The notes beneath the pieces are model-generated. The model made no database searches. It was not told the origin of the DNA and worked only from the letters and a program-made list of their open reading frames with translations. The translations under genes and the position numbers were made by a program. From Rhodothermales bacterium (GTDB taxonomy: Bacteria > Bacteroidota > Rhodothermia > Rhodothermales > Bin80), in NCBI GenBank assembly GCA_022821875.1, contig JAJECV010000006.1:98886-162885 (forward strand): 64,000 nucleotides of DNA, in the 5' to 3' direction. Of this stretch, positions 1,358 to 38,773 are shown in pieces. The stretch's first letter is position 1. Each line of letters starts with the position of its first letter.

Positions 1358-1845
1358 TCCATGGTACAGTGCTGGTGGAGGGGGCGGCTTCCGGTCCGCT
1401 TCTGGTCAGTGATACACCGCTTAGTTTCTGGGGCGGCTACAGCCAGTTCACGGGCGAGGTCATTGATCGTCGGCATCCATTGTCGGGGGAAATTGCGACG
1501 GATTGCATTCTGGCCATTCCTGCATCCAGAGGCTCCAGCACTACCACGGCAGTGCTGCTGGAAGCAGTCCGCAGGGGCACTGCGCCCGCCGCCCTGATCA
1601 CAAATCAGATGGATACATTTTTGGTTCTTGCTTCAATCGTGGCAGATGAACTTTATCAAAAACCGATTCCGGTCTTCGCCCTGGATATCGAAGCGTTTGC
1701 ATTGCTGAGTAGCGGTCAGTATGCAGTACTGAATCCAGATGGAAACGTCATAGTCAGGGATCGGCAGGGCAGGGTTTCCGGGCCACAAGCACTTCCCGTT
1801 TCCCAGGTGGTCCAGGGCGGCGCATTACCGAGAACCCGCTCGTAA
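1345..1845 (+). CDS. Aconitase X swivel (small) subunit, DUF126 family
   Basis: 166-aa ORF with GAASGPLLVSDTPLSFWGGYSQFTGEVIDRRHPLSGEI...AIPASRGSSTTTAVLLEAVRRGTAPAALI, the typical DUF126 signature. Translationally coupled to the DUF521 ORF. Confidence 0.72.
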   Translation: MEHIIHGTVLVEGAASGPLLVSDTPLSFWGGYSQFTGEVIDRRHPLSGEIATDCILAIPASRGSSTTTAVLLEAVRRGTAPAALITNQMDTFLVLASIVADELYQKPIPVFALDIEAFALLSSGQYAVLNPDGNVIVRDRQGRVSGPQALPVSQVVQGGALPRTRS

Positions 1846-2467
1846 CCAGTGCTCGCCGGACACGGCCTGCGGCAGAATAGGTCGCAAGGCATCCGCCACC
1901 GCACAGGGTATCATGCAATTGCTGAATGAATTCCAATGTCCAAAGTATCGGGTTCGACTTCGGATCAAACGCGTCCAGATAGACACAGTCGTAGGCATTG
2001 GGAGACAGGTTCGCAGTCGTGGCCTCCCCGATATGCAGTTGAAGAATACTGCCCCCATCATGGGGTAAGTGATAGGTGCCGGAGGGGACTGCTCCATCAA
2101 AAGTTCCTCTCCACTGGATTAGATGCTGTGCAAGCGGCGGAGTCTCAATCAGTTCTCCGTAACTTAACCGGGACAGCAGGTCAGCATTTGGGATTTGCAA
2201 ATCCAGTCCGGTGTATGTGAGGGATACTTGATGACGCAGGGCAAGTGATGCAGTCAGGAGCCAATTTAATCCTGCACCGAAGCCGACCTCTAAAATGGAC
2301 ATTTCTTTTCTGGACTGGAACAGTTCCGATAGCTTCGCACCTTCAAGAAACACATGGCTGGCTTCTGTCAAAGCGCCGTGCATGGAGTGAAATGACTGCC
2401 GAAATGCATGGCTGTACAGGGTACGGCTTCCATCCCTTGTGGTACGGATTTCAAGGGAATCTTCCAT
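1754..2467 (-). CDS. tRNA mnm5s2U methyltransferase-like protein (MnmC methyltransferase domain, DUF752)
   Basis: 237-aa ORF with TRDGSRTLYS...FHSMHGALTEASHVF, a SAM-binding ILEVGFGAGLN motif, and DCVYLDAFDPKSNPILW. Confidence 0.7.
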   Translation of the reverse strand: MEDSLEIRTTRDGSRTLYSHAFRQSFHSMHGALTEASHVFLEGAKLSELFQSRKEMSILEVGFGAGLNWLLTASLALRHQVSLTYTGLDLQIPNADLLSRLSYGELIETPPLAQHLIQWRGTFDGAVPSGTYHLPHDGGSILQLHIGEATTANLSPNAYDCVYLDAFDPKSNPILWTLEFIQQLHDTLCGGGCLATYSAAGRVRRALVTSGFSVMRRPGPPGKREVLVARKPCPADP

Positions 2468-2952
2468 ATGAACGGATACACTCTGGAAAGATTAGGGGTA
2501 GAATCCCCCAATTTACTGCAAAGATCGGAAGGGGCAAACTGTGGGCTGCCGCCGCCATGCACGGCCGTTCTCCACGGGCGCTCAGGTGTGAGCATAATTA
2601 CGGGATTTAGATCGGTCGGATACCATGGGAGGGCAGCGTTTGATTCCATTGGCTTTGCAGGGCGCAGCACGGCCACACACATCATCCGTATTCAGGATTT
2701 GCACCGCACCGCACCGCACTGCTGTACGGAGCGTTCATGTTATGACTCCAGTGATCCCTGAAATGGATTCGTGGGGAGATGCGTGATGTTACTCCTCACG
2801 GACATGATGTTCTATCTGAAACTGGTTCCATGTTGTTCAGACGCATTTTCAGACAGGAGAAACAGCACTGAAAACAAAGGGATTGAAACTTTCCAGACAG
2901 GTGCGTGTATACACTGACTGAGACGTGCTTAATGCAGCGATCTCCTTCCGGG

Positions 2953-2983
2953 GCCCACGCAATAGCGTGGGCTTCCGTGTTTC
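2953..2983 (+). terminator. Unit-1 hairpin plus T-rich tail (terminator-like)
   Basis: gcccacgc-aata-gcgtgggc followed by ttccgtgtttc. Confidence 0.4.
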
Positions 2984-3273
2984 TGATAAGATCCTGATCA
3001 AGTCCAGAAGCTTCACCTACCCGGTGAACCCGGTCATTGCTCCGATAGATTGGGGTTTTTCTCTGTCCTATCCTGATACCCCTTACAATATTCAACCTGC
3101 AGATGCAGGTGTGCCATCAGTTTATTCAAGTGAGTATTTTTCGGTTTCCTCCTCGTAGTACGAATGCTTTTCTGCGCAGTTTAAGGTGGCGGATATGGGC
3201 TATTGAAGCTATTTGAATTTTAGTCCGTATACTATGGGTGAGGCGCGGTCCATGTGAGCGCCCTCTTTCCGAG

Positions 3274-3303
3274 GCCCACACTTGTTGTGGGCTTTCGTGT
3301 TTC
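3274..3303 (+). terminator. Unit-2 hairpin plus T-rich tail (terminator-like)
   Basis: gcccaca-cttgt-tgtgggc followed by tttcgtgtttc. The seventh stem pair is A:T where unit 1 has G:C. Confidence 0.4.
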
Positions 3304-3593
3304 GGGTATCCTCCTAGTTGAGTCCAAAAACTTCACCTACCCAATGAAACCGATCATTGCTGCGACAGACTGGGATTTTTCTCTGTCCTATCCTGATCCC
3401 CCTTACAGCATTCAAATTGTAGATACAGGTGTGCCATAAGTTCTTCAAGGAAGCTTTTTTTGGTTTCCGCCTCGTAGTACGAATGCTTTTCTGCGCAGCA
3501 GGGGAGGTGGATAGATGGGTGATTGAAACTATTTAAGTTATAATCCGTATATTACTCATGAGACGCGGTCCATGTGAGCGCCCTCGTTCCGAA

Positions 3594-3623
3594 GCCCACA
3601 CTTGTTGTGGGCTTTCGTGTTTC
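3594..3623 (+). terminator. Unit-3 hairpin plus T-rich tail, immediately upstream of the DUF3800 start
   Basis: Identical to the unit-2 hairpin. It sits 15 nt upstream of ATG 3638. Confidence 0.4.
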
Positions 3624-3637
3624 TACACCTTAGGTCA

Positions 3638-4390
3638 ATGCTTTTTGTTTACCTTGACGAATTTGGTCACATTGGTCCGTTTATAGATCGCAGGCATTCG
3701 CGACACAACGACAGCCCTGTATTCGGTTTGGCAGGATTCGCGATACCGGCAGATTCAGCACGACATTTTGGAACTTGGTTCTTTGAAAAGAAATACCAAA
3801 TGCTAGGGGCTGAGATCGAGTTGTCTGGTAAGCATCCGTGGGAATGGGAAAAGAAGGGAGTGAGTCTCTACCGTTCGAAGAGTCTGCATCGTTACTCATG
3901 GCTTCGTCATTTTACTTTACGATTGTTCTCTAAAATTCAGGGTTTAGATGGCTTCATATTCTACTATGGAATTGAGAAGACTGCCACACTTGATGAACAC
4001 AATCCAATTGGGATGTATCGGAATATCTTGCGACAATCAATAAAGCGAATAGACGATTTTTGCGAGAATTCGCACCCCGCCCCCGATAATTTTATAATGA
4101 TATTAGATGAAAATACTCAGCGTAAAAACTTAATTGCGCAAGCAGCGCAAAGTATGTACGGTAATGTTGATCAATGCAAACGCTTAATTGAACCGCCGTT
4201 TCATCTTGAAAGTCATCGTTATCAAAATTTACAAGTTGCAGATTGGATTGCCGGCCTTGTTGGGCGGCTGGGTGCACTCCAGGCCGATCCAAGGGCATTT
4301 TCAGAAAATGTTGTGTTCACCCGCTACTTTCAATCCCGACTAAAACAGGCCGCCCGGAAGTCGGGAATCAGGAAGGCATTGCACGGATAG
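3638..4390 (+). CDS. DUF3800 domain protein (function unknown)
   Basis: The ORF track opens at 3602, but the in-frame ATG at 3638 gives MLFVYLDEFGH, the family-typical N-terminus (hydrophobic-Y-x-D-E-x-G). The C-terminal LQVADWIAGLV matches the family Q-x-A-D motif. Confidence 0.75.
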   Translation: MLFVYLDEFGHIGPFIDRRHSRHNDSPVFGLAGFAIPADSARHFGTWFFEKKYQMLGAEIELSGKHPWEWEKKGVSLYRSKSLHRYSWLRHFTLRLFSKIQGLDGFIFYYGIEKTATLDEHNPIGMYRNILRQSIKRIDDFCENSHPAPDNFIMILDENTQRKNLIAQAAQSMYGNVDQCKRLIEPPFHLESHRYQNLQVADWIAGLVGRLGALQADPRAFSENVVFTRYFQSRLKQAARKSGIRKALHG

Positions 4391-4476
4391 TTCCCGTATC
4401 GCGGGCAGATCCAGGCCTGTACAGGGACATTCGAGCGGCATAGCAGTTAGAGTCTGCCAATCATTGATTGTGCACA

Positions 4477-5121
4477 ATGCTTAGTCCGGCGATTCAGGAT
4501 TACCTGAAAGTGATCTTTACGATCCAGGAAGAGAATGCCGTGGTCACCACCACAGATATCGCCCGTACCATGAATGTGTCCGCTGCATCCGTGACGGGAA
4601 TGATCAAACGCCTGGATCGGATGAAACTGGTCGTGCATGAATCGTACAAAGGTGTAAAACTCACCGGTGCCGGCGAAAAAATTGCGCTGGAAATCATCCG
4701 ACATCACCGACTGCTGGAAACCTACCTCCGGGAAATCATGGGCTACTCCTGGGAAAAAATGCATGCGGAAGCAGAACATCTGGAGCATCATATTTCTGAA
4801 GACTTCGAGGAGCGGATAGATGCACTTTTGGGGTACCCCACTCATGATCCCCACGGGCACCCAATTCCAACTCATGACCTCAAGATGGTCCGCACAAAGA
4901 CCATCGCACTCTCAGAGGCCCCCACGGGTGAACTGCTGTCCATTCACCATCTGTCCGATTCGGATGCGAATCTACTGGGACTACTGGAAAAAACGGGCCT
5001 GTTGCCCGGGTGTGAAGTTCGGATTATTGAACGCAACGACACCGGAATGAATGTGATAATTGGAAGGCGGGAAGAGTTTATTCAGGAAAAAGCAGCAGAC
5101 AGCGTGCATGTAATCATTTAA
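4477..5121 (+). CDS. DtxR/MntR-family metal-dependent transcriptional repressor with a C-terminal FeoA/SH3-like domain
   Basis: AIQDYLKVIF...TTDIARTMNVSAASVTGMIKRLDRMKLV (wHTH), HHRLLETYL, and EAEHLEHHIS...HDPHGHPIP metal ligands. ATG at 4477 chosen over the TTG at 4468. Confidence 0.8.
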   Translation: MLSPAIQDYLKVIFTIQEENAVVTTTDIARTMNVSAASVTGMIKRLDRMKLVVHESYKGVKLTGAGEKIALEIIRHHRLLETYLREIMGYSWEKMHAEAEHLEHHISEDFEERIDALLGYPTHDPHGHPIPTHDLKMVRTKTIALSEAPTGELLSIHHLSDSDANLLGLLEKTGLLPGCEVRIIERNDTGMNVIIGRREEFIQEKAADSVHVII

Positions 5122-6183: not shown

Positions 6184-7485
6184 ATGCCCGTTAAAGATTG
6201 TAAGACAAAGCCCTCCGTCGGTTCAGGGGAACGGCAACATGTAACGATCCGCTTTCGTCTGCGAGGCGACAAGAAGACCTGCCGGTTCCTGAATGGACTG
6301 GCGGGTGTCAACCGGTATCTCTGGAATGCGGCGCTGGCAAAAGCCAAAGAGGATTACACGGAAACCGGAAAATCCCAGACCTCTCAGTTTGATTTCTACA
6401 CGTGGTATAAAGTACACAAGGATACGGTCGCACCATGGCTAAGAGATTATCCCGTAAACGCGACTCGCACCGGACTGAAGGATCTGGCGGATGCTTACAA
6501 GCAGTTCTTCAAGAAAAAGCGGGGGTTCCCTAGGTTCAAGAAAAGGGGCAAGGCGAAAAAAAGCTTCAGCGTAGATGTGTCAGGGGGGAAGATATTTTCA
6601 ACGAATGGATATGTTCGGCTAAAGCGGGGCATGCATATGAAGATGCTGCGATTTTATCGAGTGAACCGCTACACAAACTCGGTGCCCAAGACGGCCCGCA
6701 TCTTTGAAGAAAATGGAAACTGGTATATGACAGTCGTCTATGAAGTGGACGCTACCCTGCAAGATGCGGACGGCATTGGCATTGGGGTCGACCGTAATTG
6801 CGGACAGGTTGATGACAGTGCGGGAAGGATCTTCTATCTGACCGACACATCTGATATTGAAAAGCGCATTAAGAAGCTTCAACGCCGACTAGCGAAAAAA
6901 CAGAAAGGAATTCATTCCTGGAGGAGACGAAAGAAAACCATTGCACGCCATGAACGCAAGATCAAGAACATCCGAAGGAATGACTTGCGTCCTATTGCCT
7001 TATCGCTCACCGAAATCTCTGAGCTTGTAATCCTGGAAGACCTGAAAACCAAGGGTATGACCGCAAGCGCGAAAGGAACGGTCGAGAATCCGGGCAGGAA
7101 GGTGAGGCAGAAAACGGGACTGAACCGCTTGATACTGGGAACAGGATGGGCGATACTGGAGCAGTTCCTGCGAGAGCGAGACATGGTGATCAAGGTGCCC
7201 CCGTATTCTACATCACAGACATGTAGCAAGTGTTCCTGTGTGAACGCAAAGAACCGGCATAGGCAGTCCGAGTTTCTATGTCTGACGTGCGGGTACCAAG
7301 CGAATGCGGACTCAAATGCGTCCGTAAATATCCGGGCATCGGGGGATGGCATGCTGGCGCGAATTGTGCCGAACGGGTTGTGGAGCCTATGGTTGACCTG
7401 TCCTTGCGGAGCGCAAGCCTGCAAGGACAGGCAACGGGCAACGAAACACCAAAAAGACCATGAGAGCTGTTGCTCATGGACATAA
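6184..7485 (+). CDS. tnpB: TnpB (IS605 OrfB) RNA-guided endonuclease
   Basis: RuvC-I GIGVDRN, RuvC-II LVILEDLK, zinc ribbon CSKCSC...CLTCG, RuvC-III ANADSNASVNI. The start is uncertain (GTG 6079 or ATG 6184). Confidence 0.85.
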   Translation: MPVKDCKTKPSVGSGERQHVTIRFRLRGDKKTCRFLNGLAGVNRYLWNAALAKAKEDYTETGKSQTSQFDFYTWYKVHKDTVAPWLRDYPVNATRTGLKDLADAYKQFFKKKRGFPRFKKRGKAKKSFSVDVSGGKIFSTNGYVRLKRGMHMKMLRFYRVNRYTNSVPKTARIFEENGNWYMTVVYEVDATLQDADGIGIGVDRNCGQVDDSAGRIFYLTDTSDIEKRIKKLQRRLAKKQKGIHSWRRRKKTIARHERKIKNIRRNDLRPIALSLTEISELVILEDLKTKGMTASAKGTVENPGRKVRQKTGLNRLILGTGWAILEQFLRERDMVIKVPPYSTSQTCSKCSCVNAKNRHRQSEFLCLTCGYQANADSNASVNIRASGDGMLARIVPNGLWSLWLTCPCGAQACKDRQRATKHQKDHESCCSWT

Positions 7486-7553
7486 TTCCCAAGGCTGTAA
7501 ACGAATCCTATACCTTGTTGTAATGTATAAATTAAAAAATCGAAGGGGTTCCC
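7330..7553 (+). ncRNA. Expected omega/reRNA scaffold overlapping the tnpB 3' end (position inferred, not demonstrated)
   Basis: In characterised TnpB elements the guide RNA scaffold overlaps the 3' end of tnpB and ends at the IS right end. Here there are stems ccttgc...gcaagg (about 7401-7425) and ccatgag...ctcatgg (7458-7479), and the last ~55 codons of the ORF look non-protein-like. Confidence 0.3.
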
Positions 7554-8426
7554 GTGAAGATCATTCGTACAGTTCAAGAAATGCAGGTATACGCGGATAT
7601 GCAGCGTATGCATGGCCGTAAATTAGCATTGGTCCCAACCATGGGCAGCCTGCATAAGGGGCACCTGTCTCTTGTAAAACGTGCGCAGGCGGAAGCAGAT
7701 CATGTTACGGTGTCTATCTTTGTCAATCCGACCCAGTTTGGGCCTAGTGAAGACTTTGAAGCCTATCCGCGCGATTTTCAGAGAGATTGTGCGTTACTGG
7801 AGGAGTTAGGCGGGGTCAGTGCGGTCTTCGCTCCGAGTGAGGCAACGCTCTATCCTTCGGGATCCGACCAGCAGCGTGTATGGATCACTTGTCCGGAAAT
7901 GTCCAGCCAACTGTGCGGCAAATATAGATCGGGGCATTTCAGGGGAGTCCTGACGGTGGTCATGAAACTGTTCGCGGCGTGCAATCCCCATATCGGGGTA
8001 TTCGGTCTTAAGGATATTCAGCAGTTTGTTCTGTTGAAGAAGATGATTGAGGATTTGTCGCTGAACATAAAAATTATTGGAGGCGAGACAGTTCGTGAAG
8101 CGAATGGTCTGGCGTATTCTTCCCGTAATGAGTACCTCACGGCGGAGGAGCGTCATCAGGCAGGGATAATTTCGGAGGCGATCTACTCGGCAGTCCAGAT
8201 GATTGAAGCAGGGGAGAAAAGTCTTGAAACGGTAACCGGCAAAATACATGAGACGATTGGCAGCGTGCCGCAGGCAAAATTACAGTATGCAGAGATTGTC
8301 ACTGCCGGTACACTCCAGCCGGTTGAACAATTCATGCCGGGCATGCAGGTGATTATTGCGCTTGCGGTATATTTCCGGCAGATTCGTCTCATTGATAATG
8401 CTTTTGCTCTTGTTCCGGCGCAGTAG
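7554..8426 (+). CDS. panC: Pantoate--beta-alanine ligase
   Basis: LALVPTMGSLHKGHLSLV (HxGH), with family-typical length and layout. GTG start. Confidence 0.88.
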   Translation: MKIIRTVQEMQVYADMQRMHGRKLALVPTMGSLHKGHLSLVKRAQAEADHVTVSIFVNPTQFGPSEDFEAYPRDFQRDCALLEELGGVSAVFAPSEATLYPSGSDQQRVWITCPEMSSQLCGKYRSGHFRGVLTVVMKLFAACNPHIGVFGLKDIQQFVLLKKMIEDLSLNIKIIGGETVREANGLAYSSRNEYLTAEERHQAGIISEAIYSAVQMIEAGEKSLETVTGKIHETIGSVPQAKLQYAEIVTAGTLQPVEQFMPGMQVIIALAVYFRQIRLIDNAFALVPAQ

Positions 8427-38349: not shown

Positions 38350-38357
38350 TTGGTGGT

Positions 38358-38756
38358 ACGTGCTGACCTGTAAGCCGAATTCTGTCTCTCCGGCACCGCA
38401 ACCACCGTGCGGCGAAGCCGGAAGGATCATCATCTATCTGGGACCGGTGTCACCACGGGCCTCTAGCAACCTACCCGCACCGCAGTTTGGCGGGCCGCCT
38501 TATCGCTTGCGCGTGCGATGCTGTTTGGTTTTGCTCCGCGTAGGGTTTACCTAGCCACCATGGTCACCCATGATGCTGGTGGGCTCTTACCCGCACCATT
38601 TCACCCATCACCTGGCCTGTAAGGGCCATCGGCTGGCCTGCTTTCTGTTGCACTTGCCGTCATCGCTAAGCGATGCCTTCCCGTTAGGAAGTACGGTGCC
38701 CTATGGAGTTCGGACTTTCCTCCCTGCCTTTCGACGGGGCGATGATCCAGCCAACA
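38358..38756 (-). ncRNA. rnpB: RNase P RNA, bacterial type A (ends +/- 10 nt)
   Basis: The minus strand reads ...GGCAGGGAGGAAAGTCCGAACTCCATAGGGCA..., GGGTGAAATGGTGCGGGTAAGAGCCCACC, and GACAGAATTCGGCTTAC. These are the universally conserved P4/J11-12/P4' segments in the correct order. Confidence 0.9.
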
Positions 38757-38773
38757 TGTTATCCGCCCTGATA

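What the first reader, a model, noticed from the sequence alone, without database searches (positions are those of the whole stretch)
2953..3623. Compensatory base changes in two hairpins of the repeat unit, one of them terminator-like
Seen, hairpin A (start of each unit): unit 1 is gcccacgc-aata-gcgtgggc and units 2/3 are gcccaca-cttgt-tgtgggc. The seventh stem pair is G2959:C2966 in unit 1 and A3280:T3286 in unit 2, a double compensatory change. The loop is completely different but the stem is kept. Each hairpin is followed by ttYcgtgtttc, so it resembles an intrinsic terminator. Seen, hairpin B: cctgca-ga-tgcagg (3096-3109) against attgta-ga-tacagg (3416-3429). Pair C3100:G3105 becomes T3420:A3425, again compensatory. 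Inference: selection acts on the secondary structure. A partial terminator at every unit boundary would set the RNA-to-protein ratio, as in ToxIN.
Basis: seen in the sequence. Interest (0 to 1): 0.7.

Follow-up and report, generated by a model that had tools for sequence, protein, structure and literature searches.

The report
Conserved leader RNA before DUF3800 gene
The terminator-like hairpin is real: it is the 3' stem-loop of a roughly 64-base structured RNA, absent from Rfam 15, that sits between a promoter and the start of an RNase H-like (DUF3800) gene in bacteria of more than ten phyla and is present here in three tandem copies, whereas the second hairpin is not convincing.

Summary
Hairpin A is confirmed at the stated coordinates. 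It is helix P2 of a ~64-nt module: P1 hairpin with a bulged C, linker UUCCGAG, P2, and tail UUUCGYGUUUC.

The module lies ~22-25 nt upstream of the start codon of one DUF3800 subfamily in every upstream-intact locus among the best 80 genome loci, and in 90 of 123 pattern-selected metagenome or viral sites. A sigma-70-type promoter ends 6-7 nt before P1. Across 82 distinct copies P2 is 99% paired, with compensatory changes at 6-7 pairs. P1 also covaries.

Rfam 15 has no match for the module.

The window carries three modules, each with promoter-like boxes. They are separated by a 215-nt "body" found only in this Rhodothermales clade. All three modules are conserved far better than the bodies.

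Hairpin B is not supported. It has only three haplotypes, one pair is broken, and the hairpin does not fold in unit 2.

The ToxIN analogy holds for layout (promoter, RNA, terminator, effector gene) but not for the repeat array. Most relatives have one module.

The closest working analogue is RCd22-AbiF. Terminator and antitoxin roles remain inferences.

The parts
2883..2913 (+). Promoter-like boxes of module 1: TTGAAA (2883-2888), a 19-nt spacer, then TATACA (2908-2913), ending 6 nt before P1.
   Evidence: Positional homology with the TTGACN-N17/18-TAnnnT promoter found upstream of the module in nearly all loci. Read from the sequence. Function is inferred.
2920..2983 (+). Module copy 1: P1 2920-2944, linker CTTCCGGG 2945-2952, hairpin A (P2) 2953-2972, tail TTCCGTGTTTC 2973-2983.
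   Evidence: Covariance model R1, built without this clade, scores it 53.0 bits, E 1.5e-11, full length. It is 64/64 identical in L001 and L004 while the flanking body differs by 14-17%. It carries the compensatory A31:U55 to G:C change in the extended P2.
2984..3199 (+). Body 1, a clade-specific spacer between modules. It includes hairpin B at 3095-3110.
   Evidence: Homologues occur only in L001, L004 and L005. It has no DUF3800 coding homology, no covariation and no match in plasmid or phage collections.
3203..3233 (+). Promoter-like boxes of module 2: TTGAAG (3203-3208), a 19-nt spacer, then TATACT (3228-3233).
   Evidence: Same geometry as modules 1 and 3. Function is inferred.
3240..3303 (+). 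Module copy 2: P1 3240-3265, linker TTTCCGAG 3266-3273, hairpin A 3274-3292, tail 3293-3303.
   Evidence: R1 scores it 64.4 bits, E 1.9e-14. It is 96.9% identical to L001.
3304..3519 (+). Body 2, including the degenerate hairpin B region at 3415-3430.
3523..3553 (+). Promoter-like boxes of module 3: TTGAAA (3523-3528), a 19-nt spacer, then TATATT (3548-3553).
3560..3623 (+). Module copy 3, the actual leader of the gene: P1 3560-3585, linker GTTCCGAA 3586-3593, hairpin A 3594-3612, tail TTTCGTGTTTC 3613-3623.
   Evidence: R1 scores it 59.1 bits, E 4.4e-13. It occupies the same position relative to the start codon as in the other loci.
3638..4390 (+). DUF3800 gene, 250 aa. It has the N-terminal YLDEFGH motif and the C-terminal Q..D motif (RYQNLQVAD).
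   Evidence: Pfam PF12686, E 3.9e-17. The AlphaFold2 model has pLDDT 79 and pTM 0.83, and its best PDB match is RNase HII 1eke with probability 1.0.

Best explanation
Hairpin A is helix P2 of a conserved ~64-nt RNA module that begins at the transcription start of its own sigma-70-type promoter. The module consists of:
- P1, 5'-GAGR-C-GC..GC-YCUC, with a bulged C and a variable tip.
- An almost invariant linker, UUCCGAG.
- P2, a G+C-rich 8-bp stem that can extend through CCGAG/UUUCG.
- A U-rich tail, UUUCGYGUUUC.
The Shine-Dalgarno sequence and start codon of a DUF3800 (RNase H-like) gene follow directly.

Shown: the module is a structured RNA under purifying selection, read on the + strand, and fixed in position before this gene subfamily across many phyla.

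Inferred: P2 plus the tail acts as an intrinsic, probably leaky, terminator. Most transcripts would then end as a ~65-nt RNA, and only read-through would make DUF3800 mRNA. This keeps a potentially harmful nuclease low.

More speculative: the short RNA also acts in trans on the protein, like a type III antitoxin (ToxI, or RCd22 of AbiF).

The window lineage has amplified promoter plus module to three tandem copies. All three are kept intact, which would raise the RNA dose relative to the single gene.
For: - Module distribution: found upstream of the gene in essentially all 80 genome loci fetched by protein similarity, and in 90 of 123 sites fetched by an RNA-only pattern.
- Covariation: P2 is 99% paired with 6-7 compensatory pairs; P1 is 88.7% paired with 5 compensatory pairs; 0 of 500 shuffles reach this.
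- Promoter: canonical TTGAC-N17/18-TAnnnT ends 6-7 nt before P1.
- Geometry: the stem ends 22-25 nt before the start codon in 103 of 135 cases.
- Terminator-like features: P2 averages -16.2 kcal/mol and the tail has 6.2 U in 10 nt. The consensus scan flags copies 1 and 3 as terminator-like.
- Module conservation: the three window modules differ from L001 at 4 of 192 positions, against 58 of 436 in the bodies (Fisher p = 2e-6). Module 1 is 64/64 identical to L004 while the body differs at 31 of 218 positions (p = 4e-4).
- Gene context: no conserved partner gene is present, so RNA plus gene form a self-contained cassette.
- Precedent: RCd22-AbiF has the same layout, with a promoter, a ~100-nt ncRNA, a terminator, an RBS and a toxin gene. 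There the ncRNA acts in cis by termination and in trans by binding (PMC12373285).
Against: - No transcript ends or termination data exist.
- The tail is not a clean U-run. Its C, G and G are invariant, which suggests a sequence-specific role. In the better extended register UUUCG is base-paired, leaving only UGUUUC as a U-tract.
- Toxicity of this DUF3800 protein is unknown, and it is absent from PADLOC 2.0.
- The same RNA module also sits beside unrelated genes. These are Abi_2 and AbiEii (convergent), a weak-HEPN ORF, and YhcG. It also occurs as an orphan. This argues against a protein-specific antitoxin.
- Gene conversion between copies could inflate module conservation. Module 1, however, is distinct from modules 2 and 3 and is still invariant.
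Confidence: 0.6

Rival explanations
1. ToxIN-type type III toxin-antitoxin array. The 320-nt units would be repeats of one antitoxin transcript. The DUF3800 nuclease would cut them into units that bind and neutralise it, with hairpin A as a partial terminator at each unit boundary.
For: Tandem direct repeats lie directly upstream of a nuclease-like gene, with a terminator-like hairpin before it. Copy number varies between relatives.
Against: - Most of the 80 related loci have a single module and no repeats.
- The body of the unit is confined to four loci and shows no covariation.
- Each unit has its own promoter-like boxes.
- The units are 320 nt, against the 34-45 nt known for type III antitoxins (my knowledge of the ToxI, CptI and TenpI families).
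- The protein is RNase H-like, not ToxN/AbiQ-like.
Confidence: 0.08
2. Purely cis-acting conditional leader, of the riboswitch or attenuator type. The 5' strand GAGRCGC would switch between P1 and a helix with the tail GYGUUUC, or the CCUCUUUCC linker would mask the SD. Expression of DUF3800 would respond to a signal, and the RNA would have no trans role.
For: - The alternative 5'-end:tail helix is 93% paired, against 36-68% for slid controls.
- In L014 and L017, A2 to G is compensated in both candidate partner strands.
- RNAfold pairs the linker with the CGGAGG SD in L027, and the 5' end with the tail in window copy 3.
- The invariant linker and tail nucleotides suggest a specific ligand or factor.
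Against: - A third of sequences break pair 3 of the alternative helix, and its strands are purine-rich and U-rich, which inflates pairing.
- The window's own SD region has no complementarity to the linker.
- Module copies that have no downstream gene or a convergent gene, and the extra upstream copies kept intact here, are hard to explain by a cis-only role.
Confidence: 0.2
3. Neutral tandem duplication. Only copy 3 would be functional. Copies 1 and 2 and the bodies would be decaying relics, and the 'compensatory' differences would simply reflect two old alleles of a conserved terminator.
For: - Duplications of promoter plus module, with unrelated inserts, arose independently in L002, L046 and L144.
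- In L002 the duplicate runs 40 nt into the coding sequence (z = 5.9), as expected for plain tandem duplication.
- The upstream copy in L046 has a C.A mismatch in P2 and a damaged -35 box.
- P1 of window copy 1 is weakened.
Against: The upstream modules are much better conserved than the bodies between window, L001 and L004 (p = 2e-6 and 4e-4). Module 1 keeps all P2 pairs, including a compensatory change in the extension.
Confidence: 0.1
4. DNA-level element. The module would be a recombination or attachment site of a mobile cassette rather than an RNA.
For: - A module-insert-module arrangement occurs in four lineages.
- Two integrase genes lie directly upstream in L085, and IS elements flank the gene in L084.
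- The gene is patchily distributed across phyla.
Against: - A promoter sits at fixed spacing and orientation.
- There are 27 G.U/U.G cells in the P2 core, plus an invariant G.U. These pair only on the + strand transcript.
- Two independent helices covary.
- The duplications have different end points, which fits unequal crossing-over rather than site-specific cuts.
Confidence: 0.04

Closest known systems
DUF3800-associated RNA motifs (DUF3800-I to -XI; Weinberg et al. 2017, PMC5737381)
   Same: A conserved structured RNA next to DUF3800 genes. [quoted passage not shown]
   Different: No Rfam 15 model reaches its threshold on the window or on 29 related loci. The only hit is a 15.1-bit local match of the hairpin to DUF3800-VIII, whose cut-off is 40.2. 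Here the RNA is always directly upstream on the same strand as the DUF3800 gene, whereas DUF3800-I occurs in either orientation.
RCd22-AbiF of Clostridioides difficile (abiF motif RF03085; PMC12373285)
   Same: The layout matches: a sigma-A promoter, a short ncRNA ending in an intrinsic terminator, an RBS, and a toxic effector gene made by read-through. The RNA element is also present in more than one copy.
   Different: The RNA fold and the protein fold both differ (HEPN Abi_2 versus RNase H-like). The two abiF motifs of RCd22 lie within one ~100-nt RNA. Here each copy has its own promoter and terminator and is spaced 320 nt from the next. No RF03085 hit was found.
ToxIN/CptIN/TenpIN type III toxin-antitoxin systems
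   Same: An RNA gene precedes the effector gene, with a terminator-like hairpin between them. Tandem repetition is present in this window.
   Different: The repeats are not a family feature. The units are 320 nt, not ~35-45 nt. The effector is not ToxN-like. No processing or pseudoknot evidence exists.
Ordinary intrinsic (Rho-independent) terminators and attenuators in 5' leaders
   Same: A G+C-rich hairpin is followed by a U-rich tract between promoter and start codon.
   Different: The flanks (UUCCGAG, UUUCGYG) and the upstream helix are conserved at nearly 100% across phyla in which the protein is only 55-60% identical. That is far beyond what a generic terminator needs.

Membership tests
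Type III toxin-antitoxin (ToxIN-like) | The antitoxin is a tandem array of short (~34-45 nt) direct repeats, conserved as an array among relatives. | tested here: not met
   Units are 320 nt. Only the 64-nt module is conserved. Most of the 80 related loci have one module.
Type III toxin-antitoxin (ToxIN-like) | The toxin is a ToxN/AbiQ-family endoribonuclease (or CptN/TenpN). | tested here: not met
   Pfam finds only DUF3800. The fold search gives RNase HII.
Type III toxin-antitoxin (ToxIN-like) | A terminator lies between the RNA gene and the toxin gene, downstream of a shared promoter. | tested here: inconclusive
   A terminator-like hairpin and a promoter are present by sequence. No transcript data exist.
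Type III toxin-antitoxin (ToxIN-like) | The protein is toxic and is neutralised by direct binding of the RNA. | not testable with these tools
   This needs expression and binding assays.
DUF3800-associated RNA motifs (Weinberg 2017) | A conserved secondary structure supported by covariation. | tested here: met
DUF3800-associated RNA motifs (Weinberg 2017) | Genomic association with DUF3800 genes. | tested here: met
   The module is present in essentially all 80 protein-first loci. In 90 of 123 RNA-first sites the gene lies immediately downstream.
DUF3800-associated RNA motifs (Weinberg 2017) | Matches one of the published models (Rfam DUF3800-I, -VIII, -IX and the others). | tested here: not met
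   No hit at gathering score. The best is DUF3800-VIII at 15.1 bits against a 40.2 cut-off, covering the hairpin only. I could not check whether all eleven motifs are in Rfam 15.
Intrinsic terminator | A stable G+C-rich stem-loop immediately followed by a U-tract. | tested here: inconclusive
   The stem is met (-10.9 to -16.0 kcal/mol in the window, family mean -16.2). The tail UUUCGUGUUUC is U-rich but interrupted, and is partly paired in the extended register.
Intrinsic terminator | RNA 3' ends map to the U-tract. | not testable with these tools
   This needs Term-seq or 3' RACE.
abiF motif / RCd22-type ncRNA | Matches Rfam RF03085. | tested here: not met
   No hit even at E <= 10.

The most novel reading that the evidence does not exclude
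The module is a previously unrecognised, portable small-RNA cassette (promoter, two-helix RNA, terminator) that accompanies several unrelated abortive-infection or toxin effectors: DUF3800, Abi_2, AbiEii, a HEPN-like ORF and a PD-(D/E)XK YhcG protein. It would act as a generic RNA safety catch or infection sensor rather than a protein-specific antitoxin. One example would be a terminator whose read-through is triggered by phage-induced changes in transcription.
Probability: 0.15. Interest if true: 0.85.

Novelty: new member of a known kind. Interest (0 to 1): 0.6.

Why it matters
DUF3800 is a widespread RNase H-like domain with no demonstrated function. It turns up in retron type VII systems, in Cas12a2/a3 accessory proteins and in mobile islands, and it is known to be accompanied by many different enigmatic RNAs.

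This window leads to one more such RNA. It is small, and it is more conserved across phyla than its protein. Its architecture (promoter, two helices, terminator-like end, fixed distance to the start codon) makes cis and trans hypotheses directly testable in cultured carriers such as Leisingera sp. JC1, Ferranicluibacter rubi and Fulvimarina manganoxydans.

The module also occurs next to other Abi-type genes. This hints at a shared RNA logic among unrelated abortive-infection effectors.

Tried and rejected
1. Body as a decayed copy of the DUF3800 5' coding region. An eyeballed similarity did not survive testing. Smith-Waterman gave z = 0.4 and -0.9. A six-frame hmmsearch with the family profile found nothing. 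nhmmer with a 5'-CDS profile hit only L002. The idea holds only for L002 (40 nt, z = 5.9).

2. Pseudoknot between the P2 loop (CUCCGG) and the SD region (CCGGAG). Loci with other loops (L016, L040, L044, L077) keep the YGGAG SD without complementary change. Rejected.

3. Alternative helix between the 5' end and the tail. It is 93% paired, but composition-driven and broken at one pair in a third of sequences. Left as inconclusive.

4. Known RNA families. Six Rfam searches, including permissive ones, gave nothing relevant. A CRISPR-DR10 hit at 2853-2889 (E = 5.3) is chance.

5. BLASTN of window 2880-3640 against plasmid and phage collections gave no match.

6. A relaxed pattern scan of viral contigs gave 119 loci. 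Only three weak model hits (26-31 bits) appeared, beside endolysin or tail genes, and they look like generic terminators. True members therefore score above about 38 bits, and the motif is rare in IMG/VR.

7. Whole-unit folds. Units 1 and 2 give different MFE structures with modest z-scores of -2.3.

8. Minus-strand RNA. Rejected because of promoter orientation, the U-rich tail and the G.U pairs in P2. One caveat remains: one P1 position is A.C in 37 sequences.

Full report
**What is in the window**

Between a Methyltransf_30 gene (1754-2467, minus strand) and a DtxR/MntR-type repressor gene (4468-5121) lies a DUF3800 gene. Its most likely start is ATG 3638 and it ends at 4390 (Pfam PF12686, E 3.9e-17). 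About 1.17 kb of non-coding DNA precedes it.

Tandem Repeats Finder reports a 320-bp period, 1.9 copies, 83% matches. Alignment shows two full units plus a third copy of the unit's first ~100 nt, which abuts the gene.

The organism is a Rhodothermales bacterium. A MAG contig encodes a 98% identical protein.

**Check of the observation**

Hairpin A is exactly as described:
- GCCCACGC-AATA-GCGTGGGC at 2953-2972.
- GCCCACA-CTTGT-TGTGGGC at 3274-3292 and 3594-3612.
- Seventh pair G2959:C2966 in unit 1 against A3280:T3286 in unit 2.
- Each copy followed by TTYCGTGTTTC.

Hairpin B is also present in the sequence, but a 2-nt loop cannot form. The realistic form in unit 1 is a 6-bp stem with loop AGAT (3095-3110, -9.6 kcal/mol). 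In unit 2 one pair is compensated (C:G to U:A), one becomes U.G and one is broken (A.G). RNAfold no longer forms the hairpin there (-1.4 kcal/mol, no better than shuffles).

Across the six copies of this region available (window, L001, L004, L005) there are only three haplotypes. L005 is a unit-1/unit-2 chimera of L001, so the units recombine and the changes are not independent events. RNAalifold on the six units gives a covariation term of -0.07 kcal/mol. Hairpin B is therefore not supported as a selected structure.

**Hairpin A belongs to something larger**

I fetched relatives of the DUF3800 protein:
- 1122 homologues at E <= 1e-5.
- Two syntenic metagenome contigs.
- 80 loci from one genome per species.

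An nhmmer profile of the three window copies of the 67 nt around hairpin A hits every locus whose upstream region is intact. The hit ends about 20 nt before the start codon. The loci come from Rhodothermales, Alpha- and Gammaproteobacteria, Acidobacteriota, Gemmatimonadota, Binatia, Dehalococcoidia, Spirochaetia, Nitrospinota and others. Across these groups the protein is only 55-60% identical, while the core of the RNA element is nearly invariant.

The element has five parts:
- P1, 5'-GAGR-C-GC...GC-YCUC-3', with a bulged C and a tip that varies from a 7-nt loop to a 25-nt extension.
- Linker YUUCCGAG.
- P2, which is hairpin A: 8 bp, usually with a UCCG tetraloop.
- Tail UUUCGYGUUUC.
- Then the SD (commonly YGGAG) and the start codon.

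The stem ends 22-25 nt before the start codon in 103 of 135 cases.

**Covariation**

I used a MAFFT alignment of 82 distinct copies (A5). It was not fitted to any structure.
- P2 is 99.1% paired, with six pairs changed on both sides.
- P1 is 88.7% paired, with five such pairs.
- No shuffle of 500 reaches the observed values, and sliding the 3' partner by 1-3 columns drops pairing to 41-56%.

A second register extends P2 by C29:G57, G30:C56, A31:U55 and G32.U54 with a bulged U53. It is 99.2% paired and explains most invariant flank nucleotides. Its only variable Watson-Crick pair changes A:U to G:C precisely in window-type module 1 (CCGGG...UUCCG).

G.U pairs in the P2 core (27 cells) and the promoter orientation place the RNA on the + strand.

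A covariance model built from 70 copies, excluding the window clade, recovers the three window copies full-length. They score 64.4, 59.1 and 53.0 bits, and nothing else in the 64 kb scores.

**Promoter**

In nearly every locus a TTGAC(A/G)-N17/18-TAnnnT promoter ends 6-7 nt before the first G of P1. The module is therefore the very 5' end of the transcript.

In Rhodothermales the boxes are TTGAAA / TGTGAA / TGGGAG, then 19 nt, then TATAYW. All three window modules keep this geometry, at 2883-2913, 3203-3233 and 3523-3553. That these boxes work as promoters is inferred from positional homology. The simple sigma-70 scan did not flag them because of the 19-nt spacer.

**The rest of the repeat unit**

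The 215-nt body between modules has homologues only in L001, L004 and L005. It shows no similarity to the DUF3800 coding region at DNA or protein level, no covariation, and no match in plasmids or phages.

Extra upstream module copies with unrelated inserts also occur elsewhere:
- L002: ~250-nt insert. The duplicate runs 40 nt into the coding sequence (z = 5.9).
- L046: duplicated promoter plus module (z = 6.5).
- L144: a YhcG gene lies between two modules.

Tandem duplication of promoter plus module is therefore recurrent, with different end points.

In the window clade all copies are maintained. Against L001 the three modules differ at 4 of 192 positions, and the bodies at 58 of 436 (Fisher p = 2e-6). 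For comparison, third codon positions of the gene differ at 13%. Against the more distant L004, module 1 is 64/64 identical while its body differs at 31 of 218 positions (p = 4e-4).

**Is it known?**

Rfam 15 gives no hit at gathering thresholds in the window or in 29 related loci. Permissive scans give only a 15.1-bit local match of the hairpin to DUF3800-VIII, whose cut-off is 40.2.

Weinberg et al. 2017 described eleven unrelated RNA motifs associated with DUF3800 genes. Several end in Rho-independent terminators and none has a known function (PMC5737381). The present module fits that kind but matches none of the models I could test.

**The protein**

The protein has the N-terminal DE and C-terminal Q..D motifs. 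An AlphaFold2 model (pLDDT 79, pTM 0.83) matches RNase HII 1eke best (probability 1.0, TM 0.4-0.5). This agrees with published remarks that DUF3800 is RNase H-like (PMC7736814, PMC10910872). It has no hit in PADLOC 2.0 or NCBIfam. Neighbouring genes differ from genome to genome, sometimes including integrases or IS elements, so RNA plus gene form a self-contained cassette.

**RNA-first search**

I scanned for P2 with its flanks, without any reference to the gene. The scan returned 120 or more metagenome stretches and 2 viral contigs. In 90 of 123 sites the DUF3800 subfamily lies immediately downstream.

The remainder, all full-length model hits at 39-74 bits, fall into these groups:
- About 20 near-identical contigs, including a prophage, with a convergent Abi_2 gene whose stop codon is 25 nt beyond the hairpin.
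- A group with a convergent AbiEi/AbiEii operon.
- One locus where a 162-aa weak-HEPN ORF replaces DUF3800.
- The YhcG case.
- A few orphans.

Each of these groups is probably one or a few evolutionary events, and the pattern itself biased the sample. I therefore treat the association with other Abi-type genes as a lead, not a result. A relaxed pattern in viral contigs yielded only three weak hits beside lysis or tail genes, which look like ordinary terminators.

**Mechanism**

Shown: a promoter-proximal, two-helix RNA under strong purifying selection, at a fixed distance from the DUF3800 start codon.

Inferred: P2 plus the tail terminates most transcripts. The core stem averages -16.2 kcal/mol (-10.9 and -16.0 in the window) and the next 10 nt contain 6.2 U on average. 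This would give a ~65-nt RNA and low read-through into the nuclease gene.

The best-studied analogue is RCd22-AbiF. There a terminator-ended ncRNA upstream of the toxin gene reduces toxin expression 17-fold in cis and neutralises the toxin in trans by binding (PMC12373285). Three intact promoter-module copies before one gene in this window fit a dose-dependent trans role, but that step is speculative.

Points against a simple terminator:
- The C, G and G in the tail are invariant.
- UUUCG may be paired in the extended register.
- A possible alternative helix joins the 5' strand and the tail. It is 93% paired, and L014/L017 compensate in both partner strands, but it is composition-prone.

The occurrence next to unrelated effectors argues against a protein-specific antitoxin.

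**Verdict**

Structure is under selection and the hairpin is terminator-like before the DUF3800 gene. But the repeat is not a ToxI-like array.

The real feature is a conserved ~64-nt leader or small RNA, apparently undescribed, amplified to three copies in this lineage. I rate it a new member of a known kind: DUF3800-associated, terminator-ended RNA motifs, and type III-like RNA-effector cassettes. Interest is 0.6.

Noticed in passing
window 38355-38758 (-): Bacterial RNase P RNA class A, 243.9 bits, full length.
   Followed up: no
L086:7089-7148 (+) with Abi_2 gene at 7167-8102 (-); also L115 and about 20 near-identical metagenome contigs: The same RNA module (55 bits with model R1) lies tail-to-tail with an Abi_2 (AbiD/F-like) gene inside a prophage, next to a tape-measure gene. 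No abiF motif (RF03085) was detected there.
   Followed up: partly
L161, L194, L201, L205, L138, L174; L126; L144; L140, L149, L186, L185: Module copies lie beside a convergent AbiEi/AbiEii operon (39-42 bits) and upstream of a 162-aa weak-HEPN ORF that replaces DUF3800 (73.8 bits). Two copies flank a DUF1016/YhcG PD-(D/E)XK gene. Others are orphans with no adjacent effector.
   Followed up: partly
L014:2903-2979 and L017:2903-2979: A2 to G at the RNA 5' end is matched by U to C in both the P1 3' strand (CCCUC to CCCCC) and the tail (GUUUC to GUUCC). This hints that the 5' strand has two alternative partners.
   Followed up: partly
L005:2564-2990 versus L001:468-1215: L005 has one unit fewer than the otherwise near-identical L001, and its single unit is a chimera of L001 units 1 and 2. 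This means copy number changes by recombination, or the assembly collapsed the repeat.
   Followed up: partly
80 genome loci L003-L082: This DUF3800 subfamily stays 55-60% identical in protein across at least ten phyla, many of them sponge-associated MAGs, in unrelated gene neighbourhoods. This suggests frequent horizontal transfer of the promoter-RNA-gene cassette.
   Followed up: partly
window 2701-2719: Pentanucleotide repeat (GCACC) x 3.8 in the long non-coding stretch upstream of the first module.
   Followed up: no
window 2468-2880: About 410 nt of intergenic DNA lies upstream of module 1 with no module copy. ORF 2408-2761 (117 aa) was called as a gene on the L001 contig, but it has no Pfam hit and overlaps the methyltransferase start.
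   Followed up: partly
window 2853-2889 (+): Weak CRISPR-DR10 match (15.5 bits, E = 5.3) caused by GATTGAAAC, which is also the -35-like box of each unit. I judged it to be chance.
   Followed up: yes
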